Positions 26,748-54,617 of a DNA stretch of 64,000 nt are shown one piece after another; positions within the stretch are counted from its first letter, which is position 1, and every line of letters begins with the position of its first letter. The stretch is from Gammaproteobacteria bacterium (GTDB lineage: Bacteria; Pseudomonadota; Gammaproteobacteria; Eutrophobiales; Eutrophobiaceae), in contig OZ244905.1 in the NCBI GenBank assembly GCA_965221695.1, positions 3,200,001 to 3,264,000 of the forward strand. The letters run 5' to 3'. The notes beneath the pieces are model-generated. The model searched no databases. It worked only from the letters and a program-made list of their open reading frames with translations, and was not told the origin of the DNA. A program made the position numbers and the translations under genes.

Positions 26748-26906
26748 TTAAGGAAACTCTGATTAAGTCAGAGTTTCCTGCGATACAGGGAAGTATCGCC
26801 ACAATCAATGACGATAAGTCATTGATTGTGTGAGCACGACAAAAATCGCATTTTTGTTGTGCGTGCTCTGACAAGTCCGGGATGGACTTGTTCAGAGCTT
26901 CCTTAA
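26748..26906 (-). mobile_element. Five-hairpin MITE-like element, copy A (151 bp, 26752-26902), flanked by TTAA direct repeats
   Basis: Imperfect terminal inverted repeats GGAAACTCTGATTAAGTC / GGAAGCTCTGAACAAGTC, five internal stem-loops and homology to 54459-54613. Confidence 0.85.
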
Positions 26907-26934
26907 CTATAATTCAATTACTGGTTAGTGTCAA
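26906..26934 (-). promoter_or_regulatory. Sigma70 promoter for the riboswitch-metZ transcript
   Basis: TTGACA (26934-26929), 17 bp spacer, TATAGT (26911-26906). Confidence 0.75.
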
Positions 26935-27110
26935 ATTTTCTGTGTAAACCGGAAGTCTGGGCAAAAGGAGTCATCTTTCGGGAAATACAATATGAAGTGT
27001 CCCTTCGGGACCGGTATCTGACTGGACTCCCATTTTCATGGGAGTGGTACGGGGGAATGTCCTGACCTGTACCAATAATATTATGCTTGTGTTGCCATGA
27101 TTATGCGGGT

Positions 27111-27279
27111 TTAACCGGAAGCATCTCGATTGGTAATGAGATAATCGCGATATTGCTCCCGCAAGTGCAATTTGCTGACTTTTCCAGTTGCCGTATGGGG
27201 CAGTTGTGCAACGAAAACAACGGCGTCAGGCTTCCACCAGCTTGCCGTCGAACCAGGCCCGCAGCTCCTCAGCGATCAT
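27111..27279 (-). pseudogene. C-terminal remnant of an AlkK/DmdB-like acyl-CoA ligase, frameshifted
   Basis: AEELRAWFDGKL, then in another frame WKPDAVVFVAQLPHTATGKVSKLHLREQYRDY...*. Confidence 0.75.
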
Positions 27280-27310
27280 CACATCAATCGGTGAGATATT
27301 CGGGCTAACC
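27267..27310 (-). repeat. Second dispersed repeat family, terminal fragment
   Basis: 44-nt match with 6 mismatches to 47126-47169; minus strand TTAG-CCCGAATATCTCACCGATTGATGTGATGATCGCTGAGG. Confidence 0.7.
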
Positions 27311-27355
27311 CGTGTGGAAGCTTTCGAAGGTAAAATAATCCTGTTCATAGGCATT

Positions 27356-28507
27356 TTACAAGTCCGTCAACAGGCGCTTGGCTGATACTGCTCGTATTTT
27401 CTCGTTCAGTGGGTATGATTCCTCGCCTGCATGTATCACGATCAACTCCGTGAGTTCGAGGTCTTTTACAGCATGGCGCATTGAAGCAGTGACTGCCGGC
27501 GCCGAGGATAGCTTAATCTCGATGCCCAGTCTCTCCTTTGCTGATGGAATGAACAGGTCGAGCTCAGCGCCAGTGTGGGTTCGCCAATAATAAAATTCCC
27601 GGCCGACTCCACTCAGATGTTCCATAACCAACTCCAACAACAGCCCCTCCCAGGTACTGCCTCTTGCAGGATGTGTATCCAGGGTATCGGTATCACTGAT
27701 ACCGAGCAGGGAATGTACTAATCCTGAATCCCTGATATAAATTTTTGGCGCCTTGACCTGGCGCTTTTTCAGGTTTGCAAACCACGGGACCAGTTGCTTG
27801 ACGACCAGCGCGTCAGTAAGAATGTCAAGGTAACGGCGTACCGTCGTATCGGCGACGCCGAAAGAACGCGCAAATTCTGATGAATTCCAGACCTGGCCAT
27901 GTCGGTGAGCCAGCATCGCCCAGAAACGTCGCAGGGTTGTTCCCGATGTTTGCACACCCAGTTGGGCCAGGTCGCGTTCAATGAAAGTCCGGGTAAAGCT
28001 CTCCAACCATTCAAAGCAGTCACGGTTCGACCTGGACAGGTAGGCGCTCGGAAAACCGCCTCGGAGCCAGCGTCGATCAAGCCGGTTATTTCCCACTTCA
28101 TTCAGTCCCAGACCGCCCAGCTCGTAGTAGTTGATGCGACCGGCAAGGGACTCGGAGGACTGTCTCAACAGGTTCGGCGAGGCGCTGCCCAGAACCAGGA
28201 AACGCGCCGGTCTGGGCCTGCGGTCTGATAGCGCTCTAAGTAATGGAAACAGGTCGGGCTGGCGCTGTATTTCATCGATGATCACCAACCCCTTCAGGTT
28301 TTGCAGCGCGAGTTTTGGATCTCCTCCAAACCGGGAGAGAACTGCGGGGTCTTCCAGGTCAAAGTGGTGTGATTGTCGATTGTAGCGTTCGGCCACCTGC
28401 TTTGCCAGGGTAGTCTTACCGACCTGCCGCGGCCCCAGGATAGCGACGACCTCGAAGTTACGAAGACGCCTGATAATTTCATTGCTATGCCTGGACCGAA
28501 CAATCAT
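27356..28507 (-). CDS. AAA+ ATPase (AAA_14 + DUF4143 type)
   Basis: GPRQVGKTT, IIDEIQ, LGSAS, ESLAGR, GGFP, KAPKIYIRDSG, YYWRT..GAELD. Confidence 0.88.
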   Translation of the reverse strand: MIVRSRHSNEIIRRLRNFEVVAILGPRQVGKTTLAKQVAERYNRQSHHFDLEDPAVLSRFGGDPKLALQNLKGLVIIDEIQRQPDLFPLLRALSDRRPRPARFLVLGSASPNLLRQSSESLAGRINYYELGGLGLNEVGNNRLDRRWLRGGFPSAYLSRSNRDCFEWLESFTRTFIERDLAQLGVQTSGTTLRRFWAMLAHRHGQVWNSSEFARSFGVADTTVRRYLDILTDALVVKQLVPWFANLKKRQVKAPKIYIRDSGLVHSLLGISDTDTLDTHPARGSTWEGLLLELVMEHLSGVGREFYYWRTHTGAELDLFIPSAKERLGIEIKLSSAPAVTASMRHAVKDLELTELIVIHAGEESYPLNEKIRAVSAKRLLTDL

Positions 28508-28930
28508 ATTCTCAAGATTACCATGAAAATTCGGTAATGACCACAGATATTTCAGTGTTGCTGTAATCCGATACTATGAATTTTTTTTAGCGGCAGGGCG
28601 GTAATAACATCAGGTCGAGTGCGGCGGCTCGGAGAGATTCTTGGCTACAGCAGACGGCAGGTCCGTTCGTTCGATATATTGTTGCATATCGTTCTTTAAA
28701 AATAAGATATACAACAATAATTTCTTGGCATTCATATTCTGTCAGTAATCGCAGGCGTTCCGCCTGCCTGCGGGTGGGACGCCCACGCCCCCAGGGGTTC
28801 AGTCTGCAGGTCGTAGGCGTCAGGGGGAAGGAGGCAACATCAACACCGCATCCGTTCCTGCGTTTGAAGGCCGTCGCTACTGGCGACTTTCAATGAACGC
28901 GGCGTGATAGATGCAATTTAATATGACGGC

Positions 28931-31414
28931 TCAGAACTGTTTGCGCAGGGTTACGCCGTAGGTGCGGGTCTCGCGCAGGTAGCTAGCCAGTTTGCCGGTT
29001 TGCAACGGCACGTCGAACACGGCGGCGTGCCTATCCTTATCCAGCAAGTTGCGCGCCCAGAAGGAGATATCCAGGTCAAAGGCATCCAGCGTCAGGCCGG
29101 CGCGGACATTGAGCAGACCGAAGCCATCCTGTAGCTTGATCGGGTCGGCATTGCCGTCTGTCACGGTATTACTGCGGTGGCTGTAGTCCGCATGGACATA
29201 GCCAGTCAGGCTGTCGTTGAATGAGTGCGACAGGGTCGCGGACAGCAGCACGGTATGCTTCGGGTCACCGGCCAGGCGGTCACCGCTGCGATCGCAAAAA
29301 TTGTCCCCGGGGTTACGCTGGCCCGGGTCCGGCGTGCCGGTCAGGAACGGCGTGGCCACCCAGCAGTTAGCCATCTCGAATTCGTCGTACTCGGCATCGT
29401 TATAGATATAGGCCCCACTCAAACTCAGGCCATCGAGCGGTGTCCAGTACACCTCCAGTTCCCCGCCCTTGGCCTCCAGTTTGCCTGCGTTGCGCAGGTT
29501 AAAGCCGGTACCGGTGAAGGAATTGCTCTGGAAATCGTCAATGGTTGTGTAATGCAGCGCCAGGTTCACGCGCAGGTTGTGCTCGGGGACTACCAGCTTC
29601 ATGCCGAGCTCGACTGCGTCTGACTTCTCGGCGCCGAACACCTGGTTGAACCCCACGGGGATGCGGTCGGTATTGGCGCCGCCGGATTTGAAACCGGTGG
29701 CATAACCGGCGTATAGCAGCAGGTCATTGTTCGGGGTCCAGATCATCCTGGCGTTCCAGGTAATCTGGTCGTCCTTGAGGGTTTCATCCACATCGGGACG
29801 CGGCGATATAGCTGGCGTCAGGTAAAACCCCCAACCCGGGCGCGCGAGTTGCGCCAGCAATACCGGGTTCAGCGGCGCCAGGCCCTGGCTCGCCAGGAAC
29901 AGGTTCGTGCCTATGGCCGTGAAATCCGGCGGTGGACCAAAGGTGTCCTGATAAAAAGACCCGTTCAGTCGTTTTTTTTCATCGGAGTAACGCAGTCCGG
30001 CAGATACGCTCCACTGTTCATGCAACTGCACATCGAACTGGCCAAACAACGCCCAGGCCTCGTGGTCCTGCAGCATGACATTCAGCGCCCTGCCGCCGGG
30101 CAGCACGGCCGGGCCTGGCGGCGGGATGCGCCCGCCGGTCAACGCGGAGATCAGGCTGACCCCATTAATTAACGCGCGGAGGTCCGGGTCTCCGTTTGTG
30201 ACGAATGCCTCGAAAGCCGATCCCGGTGTAGTGGTTGTCCAGTTGTTGAGGTTCTGGTTGAAATAATACGTCCCGACCAGGTAGTCAATCCGGCCCCGGC
30301 TCCCCGACAGGCGTAACTCCTGTGAAAACATCTCCGACTCTCCGCGGTTGTAGCGCGTGATAATGTCTGCCGCATTGAAATCCACATCCGAATCGTCCGT
30401 CGTGTTGAACGTGCGATAGGCGCTGATCGCAGTAAGCGTGTCCGTGGCGCTGAGATTCCAGTTAAGCTCCGCCGACACGCCGCTGTCATCGTTCCGGGAG
30501 GCCGGCAACTGGTTCATGTGCACCACATAGTCGGTGAATTGATCTTCGCTTAGCAGTGGCACGCCCAGATTCGCCAGTAGGGCATCGGAACCCGGTCGGC
30601 CGTCAAACGAGAAATAATTGTTACGGAACGTGGCCGCAGCGCAGCATATTTCGTCGATCTCAGCATAGTCCAGGATCACGCGCAGGGACAAGTCTTCAGT
30701 AGGCGTGTACAGCAATTGCGCCCGCCCCCCGTAACGATCCCGGTCATTGAGCAGGTTACCGCCCTCACCCAGCGCGTCGACAAACCCGTCTCGGCTGGTC
30801 AGAAATGCCGTCATCCGCATCGCCAGTACATCCTCCACCAGGGTTCCTCCGAACGCGCCGTTGGCGCTGAACAGGTCCAGGTTACCATAGCTCAGTTCCA
30901 GGTAGCCGTCTGTCTCATGGGATGGCGCCACCGTGTTCAGCAGTACTGCGCCCGCGGATGAGTTGCGCCCGAACAGAGTTCCTTGGGGGCCGCGCAACAC
31001 CTCTACCCGCTCGACATCCGCCAGTTCGTTGATCAGCGAACTCTGGCGCGGCCGGTAAACGCCATCTACGTAGAGGCCGACCGAGGGCTCGAGGCCGAAG
31101 TTCTGGGAACTGGTGCCAATACCGCGTATGTTGAAGTTTGCGGTGGTGGCGCTCTGGCTCTGTCCGACACGAAGCGCCGGCGCGCTGTGCTGAAGGTCGT
31201 ATATGTCGGTGATTCCGTATTCGACCAGTTGCTCGCCGGACAGTGCAGTGACCGCGACCGGGATGTCCTGGATATTCTGCTCTCGCTTTTGCGCGGTAAC
31301 GATGATCTCTTCAAGGAGTTCCTCGATCTGCGCAAACGTCGCAAGCGGTAAAAATAATGAGAAAACGGCAATACATGCCGGCAGCCACGCTTGAATACTG
31401 GTTCTGAATAACAT
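28931..31414 (-). CDS. TonB-dependent receptor
   Basis: Signal peptide, LEEIIVTAQKREQ, VEVLRGPQGTLFGRN, C-terminal RTYGVTLRKQF. Confidence 0.93.
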   Translation of the reverse strand: MLFRTSIQAWLPACIAVFSLFLPLATFAQIEELLEEIIVTAQKREQNIQDIPVAVTALSGEQLVEYGITDIYDLQHSAPALRVGQSQSATTANFNIRGIGTSSQNFGLEPSVGLYVDGVYRPRQSSLINELADVERVEVLRGPQGTLFGRNSSAGAVLLNTVAPSHETDGYLELSYGNLDLFSANGAFGGTLVEDVLAMRMTAFLTSRDGFVDALGEGGNLLNDRDRYGGRAQLLYTPTEDLSLRVILDYAEIDEICCAAATFRNNYFSFDGRPGSDALLANLGVPLLSEDQFTDYVVHMNQLPASRNDDSGVSAELNWNLSATDTLTAISAYRTFNTTDDSDVDFNAADIITRYNRGESEMFSQELRLSGSRGRIDYLVGTYYFNQNLNNWTTTTPGSAFEAFVTNGDPDLRALINGVSLISALTGGRIPPPGPAVLPGGRALNVMLQDHEAWALFGQFDVQLHEQWSVSAGLRYSDEKKRLNGSFYQDTFGPPPDFTAIGTNLFLASQGLAPLNPVLLAQLARPGWGFYLTPAISPRPDVDETLKDDQITWNARMIWTPNNDLLLYAGYATGFKSGGANTDRIPVGFNQVFGAEKSDAVELGMKLVVPEHNLRVNLALHYTTIDDFQSNSFTGTGFNLRNAGKLEAKGGELEVYWTPLDGLSLSGAYIYNDAEYDEFEMANCWVATPFLTGTPDPGQRNPGDNFCDRSGDRLAGDPKHTVLLSATLSHSFNDSLTGYVHADYSHRSNTVTDGNADPIKLQDGFGLLNVRAGLTLDAFDLDISFWARNLLDKDRHAAVFDVPLQTGKLASYLRETRTYGVTLRKQF

Positions 31415-31823
31415 GATACCCCCTGATATAATTTCAATGCCTCAAAATAACGCTTGCAATCAGTTGAAATTGTATCCTAATATTAAGATACTACCAAAAA
31501 ACCGAATTCATGGGGGGAGGGGAGACAACCCAGCGATGCTCGCTAAGATCGGTCAGACGGATTGGATCAAAGTTAAGCGGCCTTTGACAGGCACATATTT
31601 TACTGGGGCCTCAAGGGATAAATATCTGACCTTTATATTTTGCGGGAATTGCTGGAAATAACTAACCTCAATAACAACCTGTATCGGGAAATCTGTCGTG
31701 TAATTTACGGAGACCGGATATGGCTCTCCCCTGCGGCATGGGTCACATGCCACCACAATGCAGAGACCTGATCATGAAGTTTCGGTAGATTACATTCAGT
31801 TTCACACTCAGTGGGAACATAAA

Positions 31824-32882
31824 ATGCAGCAGCAGACAAACGACTCTAAAGATAGTACTGTCCGGCCCGAATGGTTTGGCTACGCGCAGTTGGGCCTGAT
31901 ACTCCTTGTGATTGCAATTGCCTTGTACTTTGCCCGGGCGCCGGGTCGTGTCCAGCTTGACATGGCGCCTGCCCAGGTTGTGGGCGAAACCAAACCGGCC
32001 GTCAATGTCATCCGGCCGGCGCCGACCGAGCAGGCGCTGACGGTAAAACTGACCGGTTCGGTCAGGGCATACGACAAGGTGGTGGTGCGCTCTGAAGTTG
32101 CAGGGCGGGTGGTTTGGGTTTCACCCGATTTTACCAACGGTGGGTCGGTCACGGCAAACGAGGCGTTTGTCAGGCTTGATCCGGCTCGGTACGAACTTAA
32201 GGTGGAAGCGGCGGAAATGGCAGTCAGTCAAGCACAAAATACCGGCGCCGCCCAAACTGCGCTGAAACTTGCACAACTCGATCTTGCGCGTACCGAGATT
32301 TCGCTTCCCTACGATGCCCGGGTAATATCATCATCCATTTCGGTGGGCGAACTGGTTGGCCCCGTTGAAGGGCTGGACGGCGCCGCCTCAATACTGGGCA
32401 TCGTTTATCAACCCTCAATACTAGCGGTTGACGTTCCGATTGATCCGAAAGTCCTCGAATACCTCACACCCGTAATCGATCGTGCGGCAACTGTTCATAT
32501 TCGGGCGGAGACATATTCAGCCAGTGTCAATCGCATCTCATCGGTAGTTGCGCCGCAGACGCGTATGGCGTCCCTGTTCCTGAGGTTTGCGCCGGATTAC
32601 CCGCCGGAGTCGCTGCCCCTGCCGGGGTCGTTCGTCGAGGTTGAGATAGAAGGACCCGCTTACCAGGATGTCTTTGTGCTACCGGATTCCGTTCTCCAGG
32701 AAGGCGACAGTGTATGGACAGTGCAGGACGGTGTCCTGCGTTCGCTCACACCACAAGCGCTTGGACGTGTCGACACTGGACTGGTGGTGGAGGCATTCGA
32801 TGCGGGCGAGGGGATTGTTGCAGGCATTCTGCCCGGCGCCGGCGATGGCCTGGCAGTTCAGGTGGCTGAAACTTTGCAATAA
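31824..32882 (+). CDS. RND efflux periplasmic adaptor (membrane fusion protein)
   Basis: N-terminal TM, SEVAGRVVWVS, L.RTEI.LPYDARV, PGSFV.VEI.G. The start could be 31758. Confidence 0.85.
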   Translation: MQQQTNDSKDSTVRPEWFGYAQLGLILLVIAIALYFARAPGRVQLDMAPAQVVGETKPAVNVIRPAPTEQALTVKLTGSVRAYDKVVVRSEVAGRVVWVSPDFTNGGSVTANEAFVRLDPARYELKVEAAEMAVSQAQNTGAAQTALKLAQLDLARTEISLPYDARVISSSISVGELVGPVEGLDGAASILGIVYQPSILAVDVPIDPKVLEYLTPVIDRAATVHIRAETYSASVNRISSVVAPQTRMASLFLRFAPDYPPESLPLPGSFVEVEIEGPAYQDVFVLPDSVLQEGDSVWTVQDGVLRSLTPQALGRVDTGLVVEAFDAGEGIVAGILPGAGDGLAVQVAETLQ

Positions 32883-32940
32883 TAGCAAACAACCCTATCC
32901 AGGCTGTTAAAGCCCTCAATCAGACAAAACCGGTGCAATC

Positions 32941-36039: not shown

Positions 36040-36072
36040 CTCCGTTTCGCAACGGGATGGGGATAAAACCGA

Positions 36073-44497: not shown

Positions 44498-44518
44498 CGA
44501 GCAGATTCCTTGTTCCGT

Positions 44519-46910: not shown

Positions 46911-47039
46911 GAGTCCCACCTTTAATTGCCCATGACATCCGGCTGCTCTGATTGTCTCCTTCGAGTCGGTCGCCTGATGAATTAAGACAGTTGCCCGATA
47001 AAAATCCGCCATAAGCTTTCGGTCGCGAGCGCCCGCGTA

Positions 47040-47169
47040 CTGACACACAAATCCGCCTGGAGCGGATTTGGACATCCGAAGAAAGCCCGAAGGGGGCGCC
47101 CCACGGATGGGGCGCATCAAAAAATCCTCAGCAATCATCGCATCAATTGGTGAGATTTCCGGGCTAGCC
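47040..47169 (-). repeat. Multi-hairpin repeat of the second family, between fecR and the receptor
   Basis: Begins at the fecR stop (CTAG-CCCGGAAATCTCACC); hairpins GCGCCCC/GGGGCGC and CAAATCCGC/GCGGATTTG; matches 27267-27310. Confidence 0.6.
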
Positions 47170-48189
47170 ATTGTCAGGGTGAAGAAAAATCCTGTCTGCT
47201 TCAGCGTGTTCTACACGCACTCCGAAGCCTTTTTGCAACGCATTGAGCAAACTGTCTATCTCACCGATGCGAAAATATCCACCAATCCGAAGCTGTTTCA
47301 GGGACGGGTCAGAGATATGGATTTCAATCGGTGTATATCTGCTGACTTCTTTTATTACCGACTCCAGCGCGTCCCCTTCGAAAATTAACATACCATCTCG
47401 CCAGGCCAGACGTTGGATGATTGTCCGGGGTTCCAGGGTTTCTATCGAATGAAGCGCTTTGTCGAATGAGCCAGATTGGCCTGCAGTCAGCGTGGCAGGC
47501 TCCTTTTCCCGCGGTGATGCAACAGGCGAGGGATTGGTTTCGTCCTCCGTTGTGCCAGACAATCGCACTACGCCTTCACTCACAGTGATTTGTATGGCCG
47601 GCTCATCCAGGCGGACAGAAAACGCAGTGCCGATTGCTGTGATTGTTCCTTTTGGCGTTGCGACGACGAAAGGTCGTTGACTGTCCGCGTGCACGTCAAA
47701 AAATGCTTCTCCCTCGTACAAGTAAACTGTCCTTCCTGCCTCTTCATAATCCACTTTCAGCTTGCTGGCTGTATTCATTCTTATGTTGGAGCCATCAGAC
47801 AGGCGCAGCGCCTTTTGTTCTCCTATGCTGGTTTCGTGAAGCTGTGATGTCCGGATTTCCGGACGGGGATAAAAGTCTACGGCAACCAATAACAGCCCAA
47901 AAAACAAAACTGCCAGGCTCGCTGCTATCGATGCCGGCGCCCAATAGCGGGCGAATACTGATTTGCCGGGCGCGATGATGATCTCGCGATAGGCGGCGAG
48001 CACGTCCAGTTTGTCCCACAGATCAGCCATACGTTCCAGCTCCTCGGCGTGAATCGGGCTCTGTTCAATCCATGCCTTAAGCGCTTTCAAATCCTGGGTG
48101 GTCATCTTCCCCGAATCAAGCTTGGCTACCCATGTACTTGCCTGTTCTCGAATCTTTGAACGAATCGGCATATCAATTACCTGTGTCAT
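47164..48189 (-). CDS. FecR-family anti-sigma/transmembrane sensor
   Basis: EQAS.WVAKL, central TM, T.IGEQ..L.LSDGS...NT.S, GEAFFDV, AIGTAFSV, AWRDG.L.F. Confidence 0.9.
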   Translation of the reverse strand: MTQVIDMPIRSKIREQASTWVAKLDSGKMTTQDLKALKAWIEQSPIHAEELERMADLWDKLDVLAAYREIIIAPGKSVFARYWAPASIAASLAVLFFGLLLVAVDFYPRPEIRTSQLHETSIGEQKALRLSDGSNIRMNTASKLKVDYEEAGRTVYLYEGEAFFDVHADSQRPFVVATPKGTITAIGTAFSVRLDEPAIQITVSEGVVRLSGTTEDETNPSPVASPREKEPATLTAGQSGSFDKALHSIETLEPRTIIQRLAWRDGMLIFEGDALESVIKEVSRYTPIEIHISDPSLKQLRIGGYFRIGEIDSLLNALQKGFGVRVEHAEADRIFLHPDNG

Positions 48190-48194
48190 GACTT

Positions 48195-48749
48195 TTATTC
48201 ATTACCTGTTTCTTGTTGAGATAGATGATCGTTTTCATCCACATAAAACTCCTTGCTTATCAGCAGTAAACCTTTGGCGATATGTTTTTCCACAGTGCTT
48301 TCGGCAATACCGAGCTGTGCGGCTATCTCCTTCTGCTTCAACCCATGGACTTTCTTCAAGATATACACTTCTCTGACACGAGGAGGCAAATTGGCAATGG
48401 CCAGTAACGCCAATTCCAGTTGCTGCTCGATGATTGCGCTGTGCTCAATGCCTTTTTCATTACCATCCGGAACCGGTAATTCTGTAATGTTCGCCAGATT
48501 GCCGGTACGCCGGTTACGCTTGCTTTCTAGCTGATTCAACGCCAGATTTTTCGCAGTCCGATACAGAAATGCCCGGGGCGACTTTATTGAGACAGAACGT
48601 TCAGCCTGGTAAGCCTTTAGAAAAGCCTCATGCAGCGTATCCTCTATATCTTCCGCAGAATCGAGGAAACGGCGCAGAAAACGGCCCAACGAAGACTTAT
48701 TCTTCAAGAAAGCGCTTGCAATGTCGTCGCGATTTTTTTCGTAATCCAT
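48195..48749 (-). CDS. ECF sigma factor (FecI-like)
   Basis: EDTLHEAFLKA, PRAFLYR.AKNLALN, LPPRVREV..L...GL...EIA..LGI..STVEKH. Confidence 0.9.
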   Translation of the reverse strand: MDYEKNRDDIASAFLKNKSSLGRFLRRFLDSAEDIEDTLHEAFLKAYQAERSVSIKSPRAFLYRTAKNLALNQLESKRNRRTGNLANITELPVPDGNEKGIEHSAIIEQQLELALLAIANLPPRVREVYILKKVHGLKQKEIAAQLGIAESTVEKHIAKGLLLISKEFYVDENDHLSQQETGNE

Positions 48750-48903
48750 TTATTTCGGATTGATAATACTGCCGGTTGTAATCAAGACAGTTGAGTTGGA
48801 TATTTCCGCTATAGGATAGTAAACCGATACTTGATTCGTAGTGTCTCTCCTATCTTCAATCTATAATCTGTATATACAGTATTAACGGAAAAGAGGCGCT
48901 TCT

Positions 48904-49158
48904 GTGGAAACGCAAGTTATTGTCCGGGTTGATTCCCAGCTTAAGAAGAAGGTTGACACTTCTGCCAGGGCAGAAGGTAAAACCGTGAGTTTTGTCGTCA
49001 GGGAACTGCTTGAGGGATATGTCAAAAGTCGGGATATGTCGTTGTATATTGGTGAACTCTGGGATCTTATCGGCAGTCGCATGAAAATGGCAGGGAGCAC
49101 ACAAAATGATGTTGAAAATGTTATCAGGGAAGCGAGGGAAAAAGCCTATCGAGGTTAG
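48904..49158 (+). CDS. Ribbon-helix-helix (CopG-like) DNA-binding protein, putative antitoxin
   Basis: QVIVRVDSQLKKKV...A..EGKTVS.VVRELL..Y; palindrome TGTATATACA upstream. Confidence 0.75.
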   Translation: METQVIVRVDSQLKKKVDTSARAEGKTVSFVVRELLEGYVKSRDMSLYIGELWDLIGSRMKMAGSTQNDVENVIREAREKAYRG

Positions 49159-49280
49159 ACAGAACGGCATTTAACGCAGGAAGAGTCCGCGCAGTTCAGT
49201 ATGCTGTCGGTGATAATTACGACTTCATTCAATCGATATAAATCAGCGCGGGCCTTATCACTGAGTCGGTAACATGCCAT
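49155..49280 (-). pseudogene. Truncated ParE-type toxin
   Basis: Overlaps the parD 3' end; MACYRLSDKARADLYRL is a ParE/RelE N-terminus, followed by unrelated sequence and a stop after 41 aa. Confidence 0.65.
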
Positions 49281-49539
49281 CTTTCCTTAATTGCTCCAGC
49301 ACTTCCTTCCTGATATCTTCCGGCGTTTGTTGGCTCAATCCGCTTTTTTCTCCCTCAATCAGAGCAAGGCGGATTGCTTCGATTCCGGTATTGCGGTTTT
49401 GCCGCTCGCGAATGAGATCACTGATCACCTCGCTTTCCGAGCGGTATTGGCCACTGGCGACCTGGGCTTTTAGCCATTCATTATGGGTATCTGTAAAGGT
49501 AATACTCTTTCTGGGACTGGCGCTGTCATTGTGAGTCAA
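49258..49539 (-). CDS. parD: ParD-family antitoxin (CC2985-like)
   Basis: KSIT.T....EW...QV.SGQY.SESEVI.DLIR...IR.ALIEGE.SG. Confidence 0.85.
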   Translation of the reverse strand: MTHNDSASPRKSITFTDTHNEWLKAQVASGQYRSESEVISDLIRERQNRNTGIEAIRLALIEGEKSGLSQQTPEDIRKEVLEQLRKDGMLPTQ

Positions 49540-49599
49540 TTAATGGTGCGACTATGCACCAGAATTGCATTTGTTGTAAACACATTACGTATAGCTCCA

Positions 49600-49731
49600 G
49601 TGGTAGAAGGGACAAACCTGACCAACGATTTCCACGCGATAAACGGTTTCCCGTCAGGTCTGGGCGGTCGCGGTTACTACATCAATACCCCGCGTACCGT
49701 GATAGGCAGGTTGAGCTATAACTTTTTCTGA
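49600..49731 (+). pseudogene. C-terminal fragment of a TonB-dependent receptor
   Basis: VVEGTNLTND...YYINTPRTVIGRLSYNFF*, with no upstream coding sequence. Confidence 0.65.
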
Positions 49732-49766
49732 TGCGGTAGAATTCTGTTTTTATAAAGGAAGTGATT

Positions 49767-51371
49767 CTATTTGCGAGGGTCAATCTCCTGCTTTTCCAGG
49801 AGCGTGATTAGTGGCTGGAGATGTTTCTCATATTTCTTCCATCTTCCGATGGAAGATTGATATATGGGTTGTCTTATCTGTACCGCGCTGGCGGTGCTGG
49901 ATGGCGCCGAACTTTTATGAAATTGCAGGCACGCGTCCTGCCAATTCAATCTGCAAAACTCTATGATGCCGTGACTGACTTCTTCCTGGCGCATCACTAA
50001 TTCTTCATACTGAATCTCCAGGATGCTTTCTCCAAGCGTTTTTTTCCAGTGTTCCATCAGCCTGTGCCATACCACGAAATACTTTGCCAGATCATTTAAA
50101 TCATAGGCGAATGGATAAGACGCGGTAAACATGGTCTTGTACATGGAAAAACATGAATCCATGGCGTTACGACTTAACGCGATGATTTTGGCATTCGGGA
50201 GCGCCGCATGTATCAGGCCGCAATACAGGTAATTTAACGGCATCTTATCGATAAACATCGGCGTATGCCCGGTTCGTGGTCGCGTTGCTTCGATATAGGA
50301 ATGCCCCAATGACTTCATGTCGATATCCAGACTGGCTTCAACCATTTCTGTCCTGGAAAGGCGTTGTCTGCCATTCATTCCAGCGATTGCTTTGATAAGC
50401 TGTGCCGCAAATTCAGTGAGTTCGCCGGCGGGATAGACGTCACTATGGTTTGCGATAATTCGTTCTACCAGTGTGGTGCCGCTGCGTGGAAGGCCGAGCA
50501 CGAAAATGGGTTCATCGGATTCATCCCCGCTCTTCAGATTCTGTAGAGCGTCGCGGGTATGAGTTGAGATGATCTTTTCCATGACTTCAATATCCTGGTC
50601 AACATCGTATTGCATATGCTGGTGTTTCAGCGCGCATGCCGAGTTGAAATATGCAAACGCGCCGTCATAGTCCTCTATGTCCTCCTTCTCTTTCCCAAGC
50701 GCAAACCGGATAAGCATTTCGTCCTGCCAATTGTCCAGGCCATCCTGCAGGAGTTGTTCCATCTCGTCTATATGATTCGATTCAAGGGTCCAATGTCCGA
50801 GATCAGAACGAATGTAATGTGCTTTGCAGTCCCTGGGATTTATACGGATTGTCTTTTCCAGATTTTGCCGGGCCTTACCCAGTTGTCCGGTCATACGCTG
50901 ACATGCGGCAAGATTATACAGGAACAATGGATTATCGGGGTCGGCGCTTACCGCTTTTTCAAAAAGCGGTAATGCTTTCAACTGCTCATCAGCAAAGGTG
51001 TAGATACTTCCCAATGAATCCAGAATTGCAGGATCAGCCGGACTGAGTCTCACTGCCTTATCAGCCGATGAGATAGCGCCGGATTTGTTGCCGGACGCGA
51101 TGTAGCAGCGCCCGAGCAGGGCCCAATAAAAGGGTTTGTCCGGTTCAAGCCTGACCGCCTGACTTGCGCATTCGACAGCGTTGTTAAGGGCGCCGCGACC
51201 AAGGTTGATCTCGCTCAGAAGATACCAGCCCCGCGGGTCGCGCCGGTACCGATTTATATGTTCGTTACAAAGCCCAATAGCATCTTGTGAACGTCCTGTA
51301 CGCCAGAGCCTGACCGCTTGTTCGTAAAGCCTGCTGCTTTCAGCAGCTTTTATGGGTTTATTCCGGAGCAA
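49767..51371 (-). CDS. TPR-containing sulfotransferase family protein
   Basis: N-terminal TPRs; PIFVLGLPRSGTTLVE, FIDKMPLN, YEELV, TASAVQIRQPIY.SSIGRW. Confidence 0.9.
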   Translation of the reverse strand: MLRNKPIKAAESSRLYEQAVRLWRTGRSQDAIGLCNEHINRYRRDPRGWYLLSEINLGRGALNNAVECASQAVRLEPDKPFYWALLGRCYIASGNKSGAISSADKAVRLSPADPAILDSLGSIYTFADEQLKALPLFEKAVSADPDNPLFLYNLAACQRMTGQLGKARQNLEKTIRINPRDCKAHYIRSDLGHWTLESNHIDEMEQLLQDGLDNWQDEMLIRFALGKEKEDIEDYDGAFAYFNSACALKHQHMQYDVDQDIEVMEKIISTHTRDALQNLKSGDESDEPIFVLGLPRSGTTLVERIIANHSDVYPAGELTEFAAQLIKAIAGMNGRQRLSRTEMVEASLDIDMKSLGHSYIEATRPRTGHTPMFIDKMPLNYLYCGLIHAALPNAKIIALSRNAMDSCFSMYKTMFTASYPFAYDLNDLAKYFVVWHRLMEHWKKTLGESILEIQYEELVMRQEEVSHGIIEFCRLNWQDACLQFHKSSAPSSTASAVQIRQPIYQSSIGRWKKYEKHLQPLITLLEKQEIDPRK

Positions 51372-51439
51372 ATTTTACTATGCCGTTGTTCAGATTAGAC
51401 CAGTTTCATGAATTAATTGCCGTCGTGACAGATGGTGTA

Positions 51440-52696
51440 TTATTTTATTATCAATTCCAGCGGCAGTTCGGAAAACTTTTCACAGCCGGTTTCCGTTACC
51501 ATGATGCTTTCACTGTAACCAATACCGTATTGCCGGTATTTCATGTTTGTCGGGGGCATGTGAAAGGTCATGCCGGGTTGCAGCTCACGTTCCTCCCCCT
51601 GGCGCAGTGATAGGATTTCACCCTCGCCCCAGTCCGGCGGATAATTGATGCCGATGGAATATCCCAGCCGGTTACGATAGTTATCTCCAAATCCAAGCCT
51701 GCGCACGAAACTGCGCACATGCTCATCACATTCATGCGATGTCCGTCCCGGCCTGATAAAAGCCAGGGCCTCACCGACGGCATCGATCAACGCCCGGGCG
51801 CAGTCAAGCATTTCCTGTGCCGGATTGCCCAGGAAGATGGTGTACATGCGCGCGCAGCAATAACGGTGTTGTGAAGCTGAAATTTCGAAGAACATTACAT
51901 CATCCTGTTTCAGCATGTTGCTGCCGCCGGTCTGGTGCGGCAGGCAACTGCGTTCACCGGCCAATACGAAAGGCGGCAGGCCCATGTATTCTCCGCCGTT
52001 TTCAAAAATGGTCTTATTGACGATGGCGTTGATGGCGTCGGCTGAGACACCGGGCGCCGAAGCGTTCCAGCCAGCTTGCATGGCCTTGTCGACGATGGTT
52101 GAAGACTTGCGCATCACTGCGATCTCTTCGTGGGATTTAATCATGCGGGCATCCCAGAGCGCTTGGGTGGCATCGGTGAACTCCGCCTGCGGCAAATCCT
52201 TGCGCAGACTGTCATGCTCCTCCACGGTGTAGTAAAAACCCTGCTTTTCCACGCCGATGCGCTTTCCCTCCAGCCCCAGTTCCAACAGTACGCCGGCTGT
52301 GACCGAAGGCGGGTGATCATCTTCTTCCACCAATACCGAACGGGTTATCCAACTGTATTCCGGGACATTGAGGATCTCATAGCTGCGGATGACGAACACG
52401 GGATCCTGATCCGGTGTAACCACGATGCAATGATATTTATAGTAACCAGGGGTTTCATAACCACAAAGGTAAGTGATATTCTCCGGGCCACGCACCAACA
52501 GCGCATCGAGTCCCTCGGCTTCCATCCGCGCCAGTATCTTGTCATAGCGGCGCTGGAATTCCTCCAGGCTGAAGGCCAGGCGGTCGCTGTGAGCAAAGGT
52601 GATGGTATGGCCGTTCGCCAGTGTGCGCGGTTGCTTCCGGACTTCCGCCTCGGTTGCAATATCATAGACGTCGATTACAGGTTTGAAGATAGCCAC
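51440..52696 (-). CDS. M24/creatinase-fold amidohydrolase, ectoine hydrolase (EutD/DoeA)-like
   Basis: FSLEEFQRR, NITYLCGY, R.IKS.EEI, LPH, FFEI, RLGYSIGINYPPDWGE, L.PGMTFH. Confidence 0.75.
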   Translation of the reverse strand: MAIFKPVIDVYDIATEAEVRKQPRTLANGHTITFAHSDRLAFSLEEFQRRYDKILARMEAEGLDALLVRGPENITYLCGYETPGYYKYHCIVVTPDQDPVFVIRSYEILNVPEYSWITRSVLVEEDDHPPSVTAGVLLELGLEGKRIGVEKQGFYYTVEEHDSLRKDLPQAEFTDATQALWDARMIKSHEEIAVMRKSSTIVDKAMQAGWNASAPGVSADAINAIVNKTIFENGGEYMGLPPFVLAGERSCLPHQTGGSNMLKQDDVMFFEISASQHRYCCARMYTIFLGNPAQEMLDCARALIDAVGEALAFIRPGRTSHECDEHVRSFVRRLGFGDNYRNRLGYSIGINYPPDWGEGEILSLRQGEERELQPGMTFHMPPTNMKYRQYGIGYSESIMVTETGCEKFSELPLELIIK

Positions 52697-52730
52697 GATA
52701 TACTCCTTGATGTCTGGTTGATTATATTTT

Positions 52731-52760
52731 GGAAGCTCTAACTTAATCTCTGAGCTTCTT
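52731..52760 (+). repeat. Degenerate terminal-hairpin remnant of the five-hairpin element
   Basis: GGAAGCTCTAA-CTTAA-TCTCTGAGCTTC. Confidence 0.55.
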
Positions 52761-52778
52761 TTTCATTATAATGCTGAC

Positions 52779-53543
52779 ATGCCTGAAACTTCCAAACTTG
52801 ATATAGATTATAACCTCGATAACGGCCCGGCAACTTACCGGATCGGTCTTATCGTGATGGATACGGACGAAACGTCCGAGTGGGATTTCCAACGATTGTT
52901 GCCCGCTGACGGCGAAGTAATATTCTATGCCACAAGGATAACGACTGTGAATCCGGTCACTCTGGACAACCTGCGCAGACATGGACCGCAACTGGCCCGT
53001 TCTGCGTCCCTGTTGTTGCCCAACGTTGATTTGGATGCGATTGTTTATAGCTGCACTTCAGGTACCGTAGCCATGGGATTTGCGGAGGTACAGGCCCAGG
53101 TTCAGCAGGGAAGACCGCAGGCGCCGGTCATCACCCCGATTACTGCCGCGATAGCAGCCTTTCGGCAACTGCGCATTGATACGATATCCCTGTTGACGCC
53201 TTATCTTGACCCGGTGAATCAGTCAATGTGTGAATTCATCGAAAAAAACGGTGTTGCTGTGAAGAATATAAGCAGTTTCTGCGAGCAAAGTGACGTGGAC
53301 ATAGCCCGCATCCCGCCTGCGGCGATTATTGAAGGGGCACGTTCATGCTATCGGCAGGGAAGTGATGCCTTGTTTATTTCCTGTACTGCCTTGCGGGCCG
53401 CCGCACAAGCGAGCAGACTTGAGGCGGAACTGGGCGTGCCTGTGCTCACCAGCAACCAGTGCATGTTCTGGCAGGCCCTGCGCACGGCCGGTTACCGCAA
53501 GCCGCTATCCAGCCATGGCCGGATACTGGAAACGTCCGGTTGA
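52779..53543 (+). CDS. Asp/Glu racemase-maleate isomerase family protein, EutA-like
   Basis: RIGLI...TD.T.E.DF, NP.T..NLR, YSCTSG, LLTPY, FISCTALRA, TSNQ. Confidence 0.8.
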   Translation: MPETSKLDIDYNLDNGPATYRIGLIVMDTDETSEWDFQRLLPADGEVIFYATRITTVNPVTLDNLRRHGPQLARSASLLLPNVDLDAIVYSCTSGTVAMGFAEVQAQVQQGRPQAPVITPITAAIAAFRQLRIDTISLLTPYLDPVNQSMCEFIEKNGVAVKNISSFCEQSDVDIARIPPAAIIEGARSCYRQGSDALFISCTALRAAAQASRLEAELGVPVLTSNQCMFWQALRTAGYRKPLSSHGRILETSG

Positions 53544-53571
53544 TCGCGCGCCTCCCGGAAGCTTCCGGTTG

Positions 53572-54345
53572 TTATTGGCCTATAGTGCGATCCCGACCGA
53601 TGATCTTCATCAGCAGTTGAGCTGGCGGACCTGCTAGAGCCCCTCCATCCACGACGATTGATTGGCCGGTAATATAGGCGCTTTCATCAGCGGCCAGGAA
53701 GTGGAATACACCGGCGATATCGTCGGTTGAACCTATGCGGCCCAACGCCGTGAGGGCATTGCTCAAGTTCTCTCCTTCATCGCCACTGCCCATGTCAGTA
53801 TCAATATAGCCGGGACATACGGCATTAACTCGGATCCTGCGCGGGCCAAGTTCCAGAGCGGACATGCTTGTCAGGCTGAGGACGGCTTTTTTCGCTGCGC
53901 TGTATACCGCAGTGCCGATCATGTTCTTGAAAGCCGCTGCTGAAGAAGTATTGATGATGGAACCGCCGTCGTTCATGTGCGCGGGGGCATGTTTCAAACC
54001 GTACAACACGCCCCACTGGTTGATGCGCGTGACTTTTTCAATCAGCCATTGTTCGGTCTCTTCGATCTTCGGGCCGATATCGCCGACGCCGGCATTATTG
54101 CAAACGATATCGAGCCTGGCGCCGAGGAAGTCGACGGTTTCAGCCAGGGCTCGAGCCAAGCTTTTTTCATTGCCGACATCGACCGTGACAAACGTTGCGC
54201 CAATTTCTTCCGCAACCCGGGCGCCATCCTCAATATCGGCGATAACAACCCGTGCGCCGGCCTGGATGAAGCGGGCGGCCACAGCCCGACCGATACCGCG
54301 CTTGCCGCCCGTGATAAACGCCGTTTTGCCTTGCAGGGAAAACAT
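53572..54345 (-). CDS. Short-chain dehydrogenase/reductase
   Basis: TGGKRGIG, CNNAG, YSAAK, RVNAVCPG. Confidence 0.92.
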   Translation of the reverse strand: MFSLQGKTAFITGGKRGIGRAVAARFIQAGARVVIADIEDGARVAEEIGATFVTVDVGNEKSLARALAETVDFLGARLDIVCNNAGVGDIGPKIEETEQWLIEKVTRINQWGVLYGLKHAPAHMNDGGSIINTSSAAAFKNMIGTAVYSAAKKAVLSLTSMSALELGPRRIRVNAVCPGYIDTDMGSGDEGENLSNALTALGRIGSTDDIAGVFHFLAADESAYITGQSIVVDGGALAGPPAQLLMKIIGRDRTIGQ

Positions 54346-54424
54346 GATTAAACCTTCCTCTATAAATTGCTGAGACGATAATTATGGGATCAGGACAGAC
54401 AACCGTTATTTTAGTTTATCATTT

Positions 54425-54453
54425 TTAACACTTTACTGGCTCCTGAGTATAAT
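54425..54453 (+). promoter_or_regulatory. Sigma70 promoter immediately upstream of element copy B
   Basis: TTAACA (54425-54430), 17 bp spacer, TATAAT (54448-54453). Confidence 0.7.
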
Positions 54454-54454
54454 A

Positions 54455-54617
54455 TAAAGGAAACTCTGAACAAGTCCATCCTGGACTTGTCAGAGTACGG
54501 AAAACAAAAATGCGATTTTTGTTTTCCTCACAATATCAATGCCTTACAGTCATTGATATTGACGATACATCCTTGTATCGTAGGAACCTCTGAGACTTAA
54601 TCTCAGAGGTTCCTAAA
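54455..54617 (+). mobile_element. Five-hairpin MITE-like element, copy B (155 bp, 54459-54613), flanked by TAAA direct repeats
   Basis: Reverse-complement homolog of 26752-26902, with the same five stems and termini. Confidence 0.85.

What the first reader, a model, noticed from the sequence alone, without database searches (positions are those of the whole stretch)
26752..54613. Five-hairpin element whose two copies differ almost only by compensatory base-pair changes
Seen (copy A + strand versus reverse complement of copy B): stem 1 GGAAACTCTGA/TCAGAGTTTCC vs GGAACCTCTGAGA/TCTCAGAGGTTCC; stem 2 GCGATAC/GTATCGC vs ACGATAC/GTATCGT; stem 3 CACAATCAATGAC/GTCATTGATTGTG vs CAATATCAATGAC/GGCATTGATATTG; stem 4 GCACGACAAAAA/TTTTTGTTGTGC vs GGAAAACAAAAA/TTTTTGTTTTCC; stem 5 ACAAGTCC/GGACTTGT is identical. 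Loops are 5-6 nt, with TTAAG and TCGCA invariant. Each copy has its own 4-bp direct repeat (TTAA, TAAA). Known: the termini resemble the IS5 inverted repeat GGAAGGTGCGAAYAAG, and IS5 duplicates 4-bp TA-centred targets. Inference: a non-autonomous mobile element whose secondary structure (RNA or ssDNA) is maintained, i.e. a candidate mobile structured ncRNA or regulatory cassette. Hairpin-templated mutation is an alternative source of the covariation.
Basis: partly seen in the sequence, partly recalled or inferred. Interest (0 to 1): 0.8.

Follow-up and report, generated by a model that had tools for sequence, protein, structure and literature searches.

The report
Mobile five-hairpin repeat with CsrA-type loops
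A 151-base jumping DNA element, present about 90 times in this bacterial genome and in many other bacterial families, folds into five hairpins, and two of them display the RNA motif bound by the global regulator CsrA, so it may spread regulator-binding sites around genomes.

Summary
The two copies (window 26752-26902 on +, 54459-54613 on -) fold into five hairpins. They differ by 21 substitutions, 14 of them in 7 compensated pairs.

They belong to a MITE family with 88 full copies in this 3.54-Mb genome. The family has 4-bp YTAR target duplications, IS5-like ends, and precise empty sites in a sister genome and in a public run. Matching IS5-group insertion sequences occur in other genomes. None was found in this one.

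A covariance model finds the element in 30 of 151 genomes sampled one per family across the class, and in a second class. Covariation is very strong (55 of 57 pairs). It lies between subfamilies; single copies decay about neutrally.

New here:
- The best-conserved columns are the loops of hairpins 2 and 5, which read CA.GGA.G.
- Hairpin 2 matches the CsrA SELEX consensus RUACARGGAUGU. Hairpin 5 carries the commonest CsrB repeat.
- Both motifs lie on one strand, and G:T wobbles favour that strand.
- 98 of 103 consensus sites in the genome lie in this family.

Most likely this is an IS5-mobilised MITE whose cargo is a CsrA-binding RNA module. Binding and transcription are untested.

The parts
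26748..26751 (.). Left copy of the 4-bp target duplication (TTAA) of copy A
   Evidence: The sister genome G008 has a single TTAA at this place.
26752..26902 (+). MITE copy A, 151 bp, five hairpins; the top (GGA-bearing) strand is the window + strand
   Evidence: Covariance model R1 scores 177.5 bits, E 1e-55. Fold.
26752..26778 (+). Copy A hairpin 1: the left terminal inverted repeat paired with an internal inverted copy of itself, loop TTAAG
26780..26799 (+). Copy A hairpin 2: 7-bp stem and hexaloop AGGGAA. It matches the CsrA SELEX consensus at 11 of 12 positions in this copy.
26800..26830 (+). Copy A hairpin 3 (13-bp stem)
26834..26862 (+). Copy A hairpin 4 (12-bp stem, loop TCGCA)
26865..26898 (+). 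Copy A hairpin 5: 14-bp stem with one bulge. Its 3' arm is the IS5-like right end. The loop is GGGAT here and AGGAT in the family consensus.
26903..26906 (.). Right copy of the target duplication (TTAA) of copy A
   Evidence: In run X3 a contig joins 26747 to 26903.
54455..54458 (.). Target duplication (TAAA) beside copy B, low-coordinate side
54459..54613 (-). MITE copy B, 155 bp; the top (GGA-bearing) strand is the window - strand
   Evidence: R1 scores 166 bits, E 5e-52. Fold.
54583..54613 (-). Copy B hairpin 1 (13-bp stem, lengthened by a complementary GA/TC insertion)
54562..54581 (-). Copy B hairpin 2: hexaloop AAGGAT. It matches RUACARGGAUGU at 12 of 12 positions.
54531..54561 (-). Copy B hairpin 3
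54499..54527 (-). Copy B hairpin 4
54463..54496 (-). Copy B hairpin 5: loop AGGAT closed by C-G, which reads CAGGATG, the commonest repeat of E. coli csrB
54614..54617 (.). Target duplication (TAAA) beside copy B, high-coordinate side

Best explanation
[quoted passage not shown] It inserts at YTAR/TTAA sites and duplicates 4 bp. Its interior is not filler. It is a cargo of tandem hairpins whose pairing is kept by selection among the lineages that proliferate, while individual inserted copies decay about neutrally. The most likely reason for this constraint is RNA-level function of one strand. When the top strand is transcribed, hairpins 2 and 5 present GGA in C-G-closed loops. Hairpin 2 reads as the CsrA SELEX consensus and hairpin 5 as the CsrB-type repeat. 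The element would then be a mobile two-site CsrA/RsmA-binding module. It could place neighbouring transcripts under Csr control and, taken over about 90 copies, add to the pool of CsrA-titrating RNA. Shown: MITE anatomy, mobility, the IS5 link, wide distribution, covariation, loop conservation and the strand asymmetry. Inferred: transcription, CsrA binding and any regulatory effect. My odds are about 0.97 for the MITE/IS5 part, about 0.8 for selection on structure at family level, and about 0.45-0.5 for CsrA binding as the reason.
For: MITE anatomy. There are 196 nhmmer hits and 88 full-length copies, 44 on + and 44 on -. An identical 4-mer flanks 67 of 88 copies, 63 of them at the consensus boundary; 50 of the 67 are YTAR and 33 are TTAA. 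By a rough ORF call, 81 of 88 copies are intergenic.

Mobility. G008 has a precise empty site at copy A. One G008 copy has a clean empty site in G000. A contig in run X3 joins 26747 to 26903 with 4 shared letters.

IS5 link. The right end shares 15 of 19 bases with an E. coli IS5A end. Nine IS copies of 1092-1239 bp have ends GGAAnCTCTGA..AAG; 8 of the 9 have perfect YTAR duplications, and a transposase tested from one of them carries PF01609 plus PF05598. G136, G143, G153 and G058 hold both such an IS and the MITE. G039 holds an internally deleted IS with the same ends and a CTAA duplication.

Structure. On MAFFT alignment A3 (70 sequences), 97.7% of cells pair. 19 of 57 pairs change on both sides (208 cells), against 5-8 pairs and 10-26 cells with slid partners, and 0 of 500 shuffles reach this. 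On the cross-family alignment A5 (49 sequences), 93.5% of cells pair and 55 of 57 pairs change on both sides (523 cells), against 29-36 pairs and 84-119 cells when slid.

Selection at family level. Of 49 private stem substitutions in 66 copies, only 3 leave a Watson-Crick pair. Between copies A and B, 14 of 16 stem substitutions are compensated.

CsrA reading.
- The consensus RUACARGGAUGU, with GGA in a hairpin loop, is stated in PMC4347634 (passages).
- The mean information of the hairpin 2 and 5 loops is 1.41 and 1.37 bits, against 0.84-1.12 for stems and 0.62-0.91 for the other loops. The near-invariant columns read CA.GGA.G.
- 35 of 49 cross-family rows have ACANGGANG in hairpin 2, and 0 of 49 have it on the reverse strand.
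- In this genome 79 of 88 copies have ACA[AG]GGATGT and 70 of 88 have CAGGATG. 98 of the 103 genome-wide consensus 12-mers lie in this family.
- E. coli csrB holds CAGGA[ACT]G 9 times.
- The IS ends lack the motif.
- The two motifs are direct, not inverted.
- G:T wobbles outnumber A:C: 31 versus 19 types in A3, and 7 versus 0 types seen three or more times; 58 versus 34 types in A5, p 0.016.
- The long variant adds hairpins with loops CUGGA and AUGGAA.
- The genome has one csrA and no CsrB or RsmZ match.
- The second-class relatives also read CAUGGAUG and CAUGGACG in these loops.
Against: No transcription or binding data exist, and no RNA run holds the region.

Within this genome the motifs are not protected in single copies. 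Private changes number 8 in the 9 positions of the hairpin 5 loop region and 4 in the 12 positions of the hairpin 2 motif, against an average of 0.49 per position.

The GGA strand is more often antisense to neighbours. It is 32 same versus 48 opposite for genes whose 3' end faces the element, and 40 versus 56 for 5' ends. Neither difference is significant. Both window copies are antisense to the adjacent promoter-like sites.

csrA presence does not separate holders from non-holders: 25 of 30 holders have it, against 123 of 151 genomes overall.

Copy A itself deviates in both motifs (AGGGAA, CGGGATG). The consensus comes from E. coli CsrA. Alignment A5 was fitted to the model, so its pair counts lean towards the structure.
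Confidence: 0.5

Rival explanations
1. The hairpins and their loops are needed for transposition itself. Extruded cruciforms or single-strand hairpins would bring the two ends of a very short element together, or would be bound by the transposase or a host DNA-bending protein. Only copies with intact hairpins would then be amplified. No RNA role is involved.
For: Selection acts on proliferating lineages and not on resident copies, which is what a transposition requirement predicts. Hairpins 1 and 5 are built from the terminal repeats themselves. The element is about one DNA persistence length long (established knowledge). Orientation is random with respect to replication (45 versus 43) and nearly random with respect to genes.
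Against: The nine autonomous IS copies examined have no CA.GGA.G motif within about 120 bp of either end, so the transposase does not need it at its own ends. The two motifs are in direct orientation, not mirrored about the ends. G:T versus A:C asymmetry points to one strand. A MITE of the same IS clade in G053 is one long hairpin without this cargo.
Confidence: 0.22
2. It is an ordinary selfish MITE. The palindromes are created and kept by replication template switching (hairpin-templated mutation), and the CsrA-like loops are a coincidence carried along by descent.
For: Template switching can create and maintain hairpins (PMC8794818; search listing and start of abstract only). Stem 1 carries complementary 2-nt insertions, with one-arm intermediates present in the family. 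One orthologous G000/G008 pair differs by a compensated double change. Resident copies decay about neutrally.
Against: Only 3 of 49 private stem changes are compensated, so templated repair is rare per copy. Yet subfamily consensus stems are 94-98% paired, which needs selection. A mutational process would not hold loops constant while stems turn over: the loops of hairpins 2 and 5 are the most conserved columns. An exact 12-of-12 match to the consensus is expected about 1.7 times in the whole genome by my arithmetic (4^-11 per position, uniform base composition), and 103 are seen.
Confidence: 0.1
3. It is a structured RNA or DNA module with a role other than CsrA binding. Examples are a transcript-end stabiliser or insulator that makes insertions harmless in either orientation, or a site for another GGA- or SD-like-binding factor.
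For: Both strands fold equally well. Insertions are tolerated in tandem, divergent and convergent intergenic regions roughly in proportion to their length: 42/27/19 observed against 51/22.5/14 expected. Other bacterial MITEs are reported to affect mRNA stability (recalled, not checked here).
Against: None of the hairpins has a terminator-like U tail. A pure stability role does not explain invariant CA.GGA.G loops or the strand asymmetry.
Confidence: 0.15

Closest known systems
IS5-group insertion sequences (E. coli IS5 and relatives) and MITEs derived from them
   Same: The terminal repeat begins GGAA and contains GAAYAAG(TCC); 15 of 19 bases match IS5A. The duplicated target is 4 bp, YTAR. 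Partner elements encode a transposase with PF01609 plus PF05598, 46-56% identical to InsH.
   Different: There is no transposase in the element, and none was found in this genome. The interior is a conserved five-hairpin cargo that is absent from the IS ends.
Structured bacterial MITEs such as Correia (Neisseria) and ERIC/YPAL (enterobacteria, Yersinia); their properties are recalled from memory, not checked here
   Same: These are elements of roughly 100-170 bp, high in copy number and intergenic. They are transcribed with neighbouring genes, fold as RNA, and are reported to alter mRNA processing or stability.
   Different: Those fold mainly as one long hairpin between the two ends and are tied to other transposase families and target duplications. 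Here there are five independent tandem hairpins, modular gain and loss of hairpins (43, about 80, 151 and about 222 bp forms), and loops that read as CsrA sites. No sequence similarity was found to any Rfam family.
CsrA/RsmA-sequestering RNAs (CsrB, CsrC, RsmX/Y/Z and analogues such as Aln1a-c)
   Same: They carry several short hairpins with A(N)GGA in the loops (PMC5864184 and PMC9788540, passages). The hairpin 5 motif CAGGATG is the commonest repeat in E. coli csrB, 6 of 9. A tandem array of units of hairpins 2-5 exists in G049.
   Different: Those are single or few-copy genes with their own promoter and terminator, and without terminal repeats or target duplications. The Rfam CsrB and RsmZ models find nothing in this genome, and RsmY gives only a 20-bit hit elsewhere. 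This element has only two GGA loops per unit and no terminator.
REP/BIME palindromic repeats and IS200/IS605-type hairpin-dependent elements
   Same: They are abundant intergenic hairpin-forming repeats. Recognition by structure is known for these systems (established knowledge).
   Different: Those leave no target duplication and show strand or replication bias. This element makes 4-bp duplications and shows no replication-strand bias, 45 versus 43.

Membership tests
MITE (non-autonomous DNA transposon) | Short, non-coding, with terminal inverted repeats | tested here: met
   The element is 151 bp with ends GGAAnCTCTGA... and ...TCAGAGnTTCC.
MITE (non-autonomous DNA transposon) | Target-site duplication of fixed length | tested here: met
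   67 of 88 copies have an identical 4-mer on both sides, 63 of them at the consensus boundary.
MITE (non-autonomous DNA transposon) | Many dispersed copies and presence/absence polymorphism | tested here: met
   There are 88 full copies. Empty sites occur in G008, in G000 and in run X3.
MITE (non-autonomous DNA transposon) | An autonomous element with matching ends | tested here: met
   It is found in other genomes (G143, G153, G058, G136). It was not found in G000 or G008.
IS5 family, IS5 group | IS5-type terminal repeat | tested here: met
   15 of 19 bases are identical to the E. coli K-12 IS5A end.
IS5 family, IS5 group | 4-bp YTAR target duplication | tested here: met
   50 of 67 duplications are YTAR. 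8 of 9 partner IS copies are flanked by TTAA, TTAG, CTAA or CTAG.
IS5 family, IS5 group | Mobilisation by a DDE_Tnp_1/DUF772 transposase | not testable with these tools
   The partner IS encodes such a protein. Mobilisation of the MITE by it is inferred.
CsrA/RsmA-binding RNA | GGA in the loop of a short hairpin, matching the high-affinity consensus | tested here: met
   Hairpin 2 matches RUACARGGAUGU in 79 of 88 copies. Folding puts GGA in a hexaloop closed by C-G.
CsrA/RsmA-binding RNA | Two or more sites per RNA | tested here: met
   Hairpins 2 and 5 each carry a site, and the long variant has four GGA loops.
CsrA/RsmA-binding RNA | Transcribed on the GGA strand | not testable with these tools
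   No RNA run is listed for the region. Both window copies are antisense to the neighbouring promoter-like sites.
CsrA/RsmA-binding RNA | Binds CsrA | not testable with these tools
   One csrA gene is present in the genome.
Rfam CsrB / RsmY / RsmZ and all other Rfam families | Score at or above the family's gathering threshold | tested here: not met
   There are 0 matches in the window at gathering. Only chance-level hits overlap the element at E up to 10. The CsrB and RsmZ models find 0 matches in the genome, and RsmY gives 20 bits elsewhere.
REP/BIME or IS200/IS605-type hairpin elements | No target duplication; strand bias relative to replication | tested here: not met
   4-bp duplications are present. 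Orientation is 45 versus 43 with respect to the replication direction inferred from GC skew. A Y1/RAYT transposase was not searched for.

The most novel reading that the evidence does not exclude
A MITE family has captured a two-site CsrA-binding RNA module and carries it across bacterial lineages. In this genome it supplies 98 of the 103 perfect high-affinity CsrA consensus sites. It is present in about a fifth of the gammaproteobacterial families sampled and in a second class. Transposition would then rewire the Csr regulon gene by gene. The summed transcripts, or tandem arrays such as the one in G049, would act as a distributed, horizontally transferable CsrA sponge.
Probability: 0.3. Interest if true: 0.85.

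Novelty: new variant of a known kind. Interest (0 to 1): 0.65.

Why it matters
Three things follow if the reading holds.

1. A global post-transcriptional regulator would have most of its best binding sites supplied by a transposon. That would be a direct route by which mobile DNA rewires a regulon. Two full-text searches for CsrA together with MITE terms found only an unrelated Rfam paper.

2. The family is a clean natural case of selection on nucleic-acid structure acting at the level of a proliferating element rather than its resident copies. It can be tested with a transposition assay.

3. There are practical consequences. The element is abundant in uncultured Pseudomonadota (30 of 151 class-level and 24 further phylum-level genomes sampled) and matches no Rfam family. 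It breaks short-read assemblies: many G039 copies lie at contig ends. It will be called as a 'novel structured ncRNA' by covariation screens unless it is recognised as a MITE.

Even if CsrA binding fails, the five-hairpin cargo with invariant loops still needs an explanation.

Tried and rejected
1. A first pattern with a 6-nt loop found nothing; the loop has 5 nt.

2. The partner IS was sought in the own genome. PF01609 gave 0 hits, E. coli InsH gave 0, and self-BLAST found no multi-copy IS, only tandem gene repeats and a few duplications. Pairs of end-like hits within 4 kb were all separate MITEs. The two hits in L081 flank an ordinary gene.

3. The 30 loci of the best PF01609 hits in relatives had no matching ends. 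The partner turned up only with InsH as the query.

4. The flanks of copy B were not found in 5 relatives, so there is no empty-site test for copy B.

5. blastn (distant mode) against plasmids gave no match. An exact 30-mer scan of IMG/VR gave 0. No vector for the spread between lineages was identified.

6. No RNA holder is listed for the region, so expression could not be examined. Only contigs were laid.

7. Orientation against replication was 45 versus 43, which rejects a lagging-strand single-strand DNA insertion mechanism.

8. The distribution over intergenic classes is not significantly different from the expectation by length (my chi-square is about 4.4 on 2 degrees of freedom).

9. csrA presence versus MITE presence is uninformative.

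10. The weak RsmY-like hit of 20 bits is not more structured than shuffles (z 0.85). It is left as a note.

11. Literature. MITE/IS5/hairpins/compensatory, CsrA plus MITE terms, CsrA plus repetitive/mobile terms, and CAGGAUG plus CsrB (0 papers) gave no description of this element. Two papers read in passages describe ordinary Csr-type sRNAs. Supplements were not consulted.

12. A global MAFFT alignment of all copies gave a poor consensus fold. It was replaced by a length-matched alignment (A3) and by model-based alignments (A4, A5). A4 contained weak reverse-strand rows and was filtered or replaced by A5.

13. In the orthologue comparison the pair L091:5224 was dropped, because the G000 copy there is a truncated, different variant. 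L087, L190 and L194 (truncated) were dropped from the information-content count. L181, from an unpublished genome, was never used.

Full report
**1. The observation**

Copy A lies at window 26752-26902 on the + strand and copy B at 54459-54613 on the - strand. Each is flanked by its own 4-bp direct repeat: TTAA for A and TAAA for B. Each strand folds into five consecutive hairpins far more stably than shuffles (z -11.9, -12.7 and -16.8; 0 of 200 shuffles as good). On the model alignment the copies differ by 21 substitutions. Of these, 14 form 7 compensated pairs, 2 are one-sided changes in stems and 5 are unpaired. A complementary 2+2-nt insertion also lengthens stem 1. It slightly overstates 'almost only', and it misses that stem 5 has 14 pairs and one compensated pair of its own.

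**2. A large family in this genome**

The window is G000:C1:3200001-3264000 of a one-contig genome of 3.54 Mb and 55% G+C. Iterated nhmmer finds 196 hits. Of these, 88 are full length, 44 on each strand.

The remaining hits fall into the following forms:
- a form of about 222 bp with three extra hairpins between hairpins 2 and 3;
- forms of about 80-85 bp with hairpins 1, 2 and 5;
- forms of about 43 bp that are hairpin 5 alone with both complete ends;
- fragments.

An identical 4-mer flanks 67 of the 88 full copies, 63 of them at the consensus boundary. The commonest are TTAA (33), CTAA (8), TTAG (7), TTTA (5), CTTA (3) and CTAG (2); 50 of the 67 are YTAR. By a rough ORF-based gene call, 81 of 88 copies are intergenic.

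**3. Mobility**

In the closest relative, G008, the flanks of copy A are 99% identical and meet at a single TTAA.

I then tested 31 G008 copies against G000:
- 15 are shared at the same site;
- 1 has a clean empty site in G000;
- 1 is a probable empty site, with flanks meeting within about 10 nt in a divergent stretch;
- 1 has 34 bp between the flanks;
- 13 could not be resolved.

In public run X3 one contig (depth 80.5) joins 26747 to 26903 with 4 letters shared by both sides. Other contigs of that run carry the filled form. The flanks of copy B were not found in five relatives.

**4. The transposase link**

The E. coli K-12 IS5A ends, read from the record, share 15 of 19 bases with the reverse complement of the element's right end. 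G000 and G008 have no PF01609 match and no InsH homologue, and G000 has no multi-copy IS.

Elsewhere, InsH-like genes lie in elements of 1092-1239 bp. Their ends read GGAAnCTCTGA..AAG, and 8 of the 9 examined are flanked by perfect TTAA, TTAG, CTAA or CTAG duplications. One transposase that I tested carries PF01609 and PF05598, the same pair found in IS5. G136, G143, G153 and G058 hold both such an IS and the MITE. G039 holds an internally deleted copy with the same ends and a CTAA duplication.

Seven of the 30 MITE-holding genomes in the class sample have an InsH-like hit at E up to 1e-20, so most holders look like orphans. This count includes the unpublished genome G165.

**5. Distribution**

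The element was found in 19 of 22 genomes of the same genus. The records with names are uncultured Gammaproteobacteria MAGs.

I built covariance model R1 from 70 copies. It matches 30 of 151 genomes drawn one per family across the class, usually over all 151 model positions. In a phylum-level draw it matches 24 genomes of another class, including 20 of 36 in one family. Remote members have different terminal repeats but keep hairpins 2-5.

Rfam has no match. The plasmid collection and IMG/VR gave none either.

**6. Structure is under selection, at family level**

On gap-free MAFFT alignment A3, 97.7% of cells pair. 19 of 57 pairs change on both sides (208 cells), against 5-8 pairs and 10-26 cells when partners are slid, and 0 of 500 shuffles reach the observed values. 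On cross-family alignment A5 (49 rows), 55 of 57 pairs change on both sides (523 cells, against 84-119 when slid). A5 was fitted to the model, so it leans towards the structure.

Resident copies behave differently. Among 66 copies of exactly 151 bp there are 74 private substitutions: 49 at 114 stem sites and 25 at 37 unpaired sites. Only 3 of the 49 stem changes leave a Watson-Crick pair; the others give G:T (18), A:C (11) or another mismatch (17).

Eighteen orthologous G000/G008 pairs differ by 26 substitutions (about 0.96%). Their flanks, counted for those pairs plus one pair that was dropped, differ at 200 of 11013 positions (1.8%). One difference is a compensated double change.

Compensation is therefore a property of the lineages that proliferate. 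It is not a result of repair or selection in place. This argues against frequent hairpin-templated correction, which remains possible as the rare source of variants (PMC8794818; listing and start of abstract only).

**7. What the structure may be for**

In the cross-family alignment the most informative parts are not the stems. They are the loops of hairpins 2 and 5, at 1.41 and 1.37 bits. Stems score 0.84-1.12 bits and the other loops 0.62-0.91. The near-invariant columns spell CA.GGA.G, and the variable columns fall exactly at the two dots.

Hairpin 2 reads AUACA(A/G)GGAUGU. This is the CsrA SELEX consensus RUACARGGAUGU, with GGA in a hexaloop closed by C-G. PMC4347634 states the consensus and the preference for GGA in a hairpin loop (passages). 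Hairpin 5 reads CAGGAUG, which is 6 of the 9 CAGGA[ACU]G repeats in E. coli csrB.

Further points bear on this reading:
- 79 of 88 copies in G000 keep the hairpin 2 motif and 70 of 88 keep the hairpin 5 motif. On the reverse strand 2 of 88 copies show any such motif.
- 98 of the 103 consensus 12-mers in the whole genome lie in this family. My arithmetic gives about 1.7 expected by chance.
- Both motifs are on the same strand.
- The motifs are absent from the ends of the autonomous IS copies.
- G:T wobbles, tolerated only if that strand folds, outnumber A:C. In A3 the count is 31 versus 19 types, and 7 versus 0 among types seen three or more times. In A5 it is 58 versus 34 types, p 0.016.
- The extra module of the long variant adds loops CUGGA and AUGGAA.
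- In G049 units of hairpins 2-5 form a tandem array of 3.4 units.
- The genome has one csrA and no CsrB or RsmZ match.
- The second-class relatives read CAUGGAUG and CAUGGACG in the two loops, and 5 of 5 holders tested there have csrA.

**8. What speaks against the RNA/CsrA reading**

There are no expression or binding data. Within G000 the motifs are not protected in single copies.

The GGA strand is somewhat more often antisense to neighbouring genes: 48 versus 32 and 56 versus 40, neither significant. Both window copies are antisense to the promoter-like sites that abut them. This could mean that sense insertions are counter-selected, or that there is no RNA role.

csrA is too common to discriminate: 25 of 30 holders have it, against 123 of 151 genomes overall. 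There is no bias with respect to replication, 45 versus 43. The distribution over intergenic classes follows their length.

**9. Verdict**

The element is certainly an IS5-group MITE, so in kind it is known. Three things are not ordinary. It has a conserved, modular five-hairpin cargo kept by compensatory change. It is spread over about a fifth of the sampled families of its class and into a second class. Its two invariant loops coincide with the CsrA recognition motif on one strand.

I give about 0.97 to the MITE/IS5 reading and about 0.8 to selection on structure at family level. I give about 0.45-0.5 to CsrA binding as the reason. A transposition requirement (0.22) is the main rival. In the papers I could search I found no description of this element or of CsrA-site-bearing MITEs. 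ISfinder could not be consulted.

Noticed in passing
window 26670-26747 (-), with 25310-26539 (-) and 26906-26934 (-): A SAM-II (RF00521) riboswitch-like aptamer scores 35.4 bits, just under the gathering score of 36, with E 1e-6. It starts exactly at copy A's target TTAA and lies upstream of a Cys/Met-metabolism PLP enzyme gene (PF01053). A strong promoter-like site (TTGACA-17-TATAGT, 11 of 12) lies on the other side of the MITE. Copy A therefore splits the promoter from the riboswitch. The sister genome G008 has the uninterrupted form.
   Followed up: partly
window 54425-54453 (+): A promoter-like site TTAACA-17-TATAAT (11 of 12) ends 5 bp before copy B and points into it, towards the TPP-enzyme gene at 54726-56432. 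Copy B lies in a divergent intergenic region next to an SDR gene at 53572-54345 (-). Both window copies sit just downstream of -10-like boxes.
   Followed up: no
window 26956-27137: In run X3 one contig skips these 180 bp and has 11 other letters in their place. G008 also lacks part of this stretch. This is a second structural polymorphism next to copy A.
   Followed up: no
G000:C1:1437767-1437886 (-) (L264 about 1501-1620): A weak RsmY-model hit (20 bits, gathering 57) has four GGA motifs and a terminator-like stem. Overall it is not more stable than shuffles (z 0.85). It could be the genome's own Csr-type sRNA or it could be chance.
   Followed up: partly
G000:C1:1649604-1649687 (+): A fragment of the MITE (model positions 68-150) lies about 350 bp downstream of the single csrA gene at 1650034-1650189 (-).
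   Followed up: no
L265 1604-2022 (G049:C1, about 2569103-2569521): A tandem array with period 124 and 3.4 units, 97% matching, is made of hairpins 2-5 without hairpin 1. It contains seven GGA loops and lies directly after a gene end, a layout like a CsrB-type RNA.
   Followed up: partly
L208 991-1275 (G053): G053 has no csrA match but carries 14 copies of the same IS clade. It also has a 285-bp MITE with the same ends that folds as one long hairpin and lacks the five-hairpin cargo.
   Followed up: partly
G000:C1, about 1.04-1.10 Mb: There are kilobases of near-identical (up to 99.9%) tandem repeats in a 279-bp register, probably inside giant repeat-protein genes. Separately there is a 2.6-kb exact duplicate at 1958047 and 2116931.
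   Followed up: no
window 27356-28507 (-): The gene whose 3' end faces copy A encodes an AAA_14 plus DUF4143 ATPase.
   Followed up: no
L043 5755-5906, L068 6610-6761, L093 5199-5350: In high-G+C Proteobacteria MAGs the same five-hairpin element has G+C-rich stems in hairpins 3 and 4, of quite different sequence. It keeps the hairpin 2 loop AUGGAU and an identical hairpin 5.
   Followed up: partly
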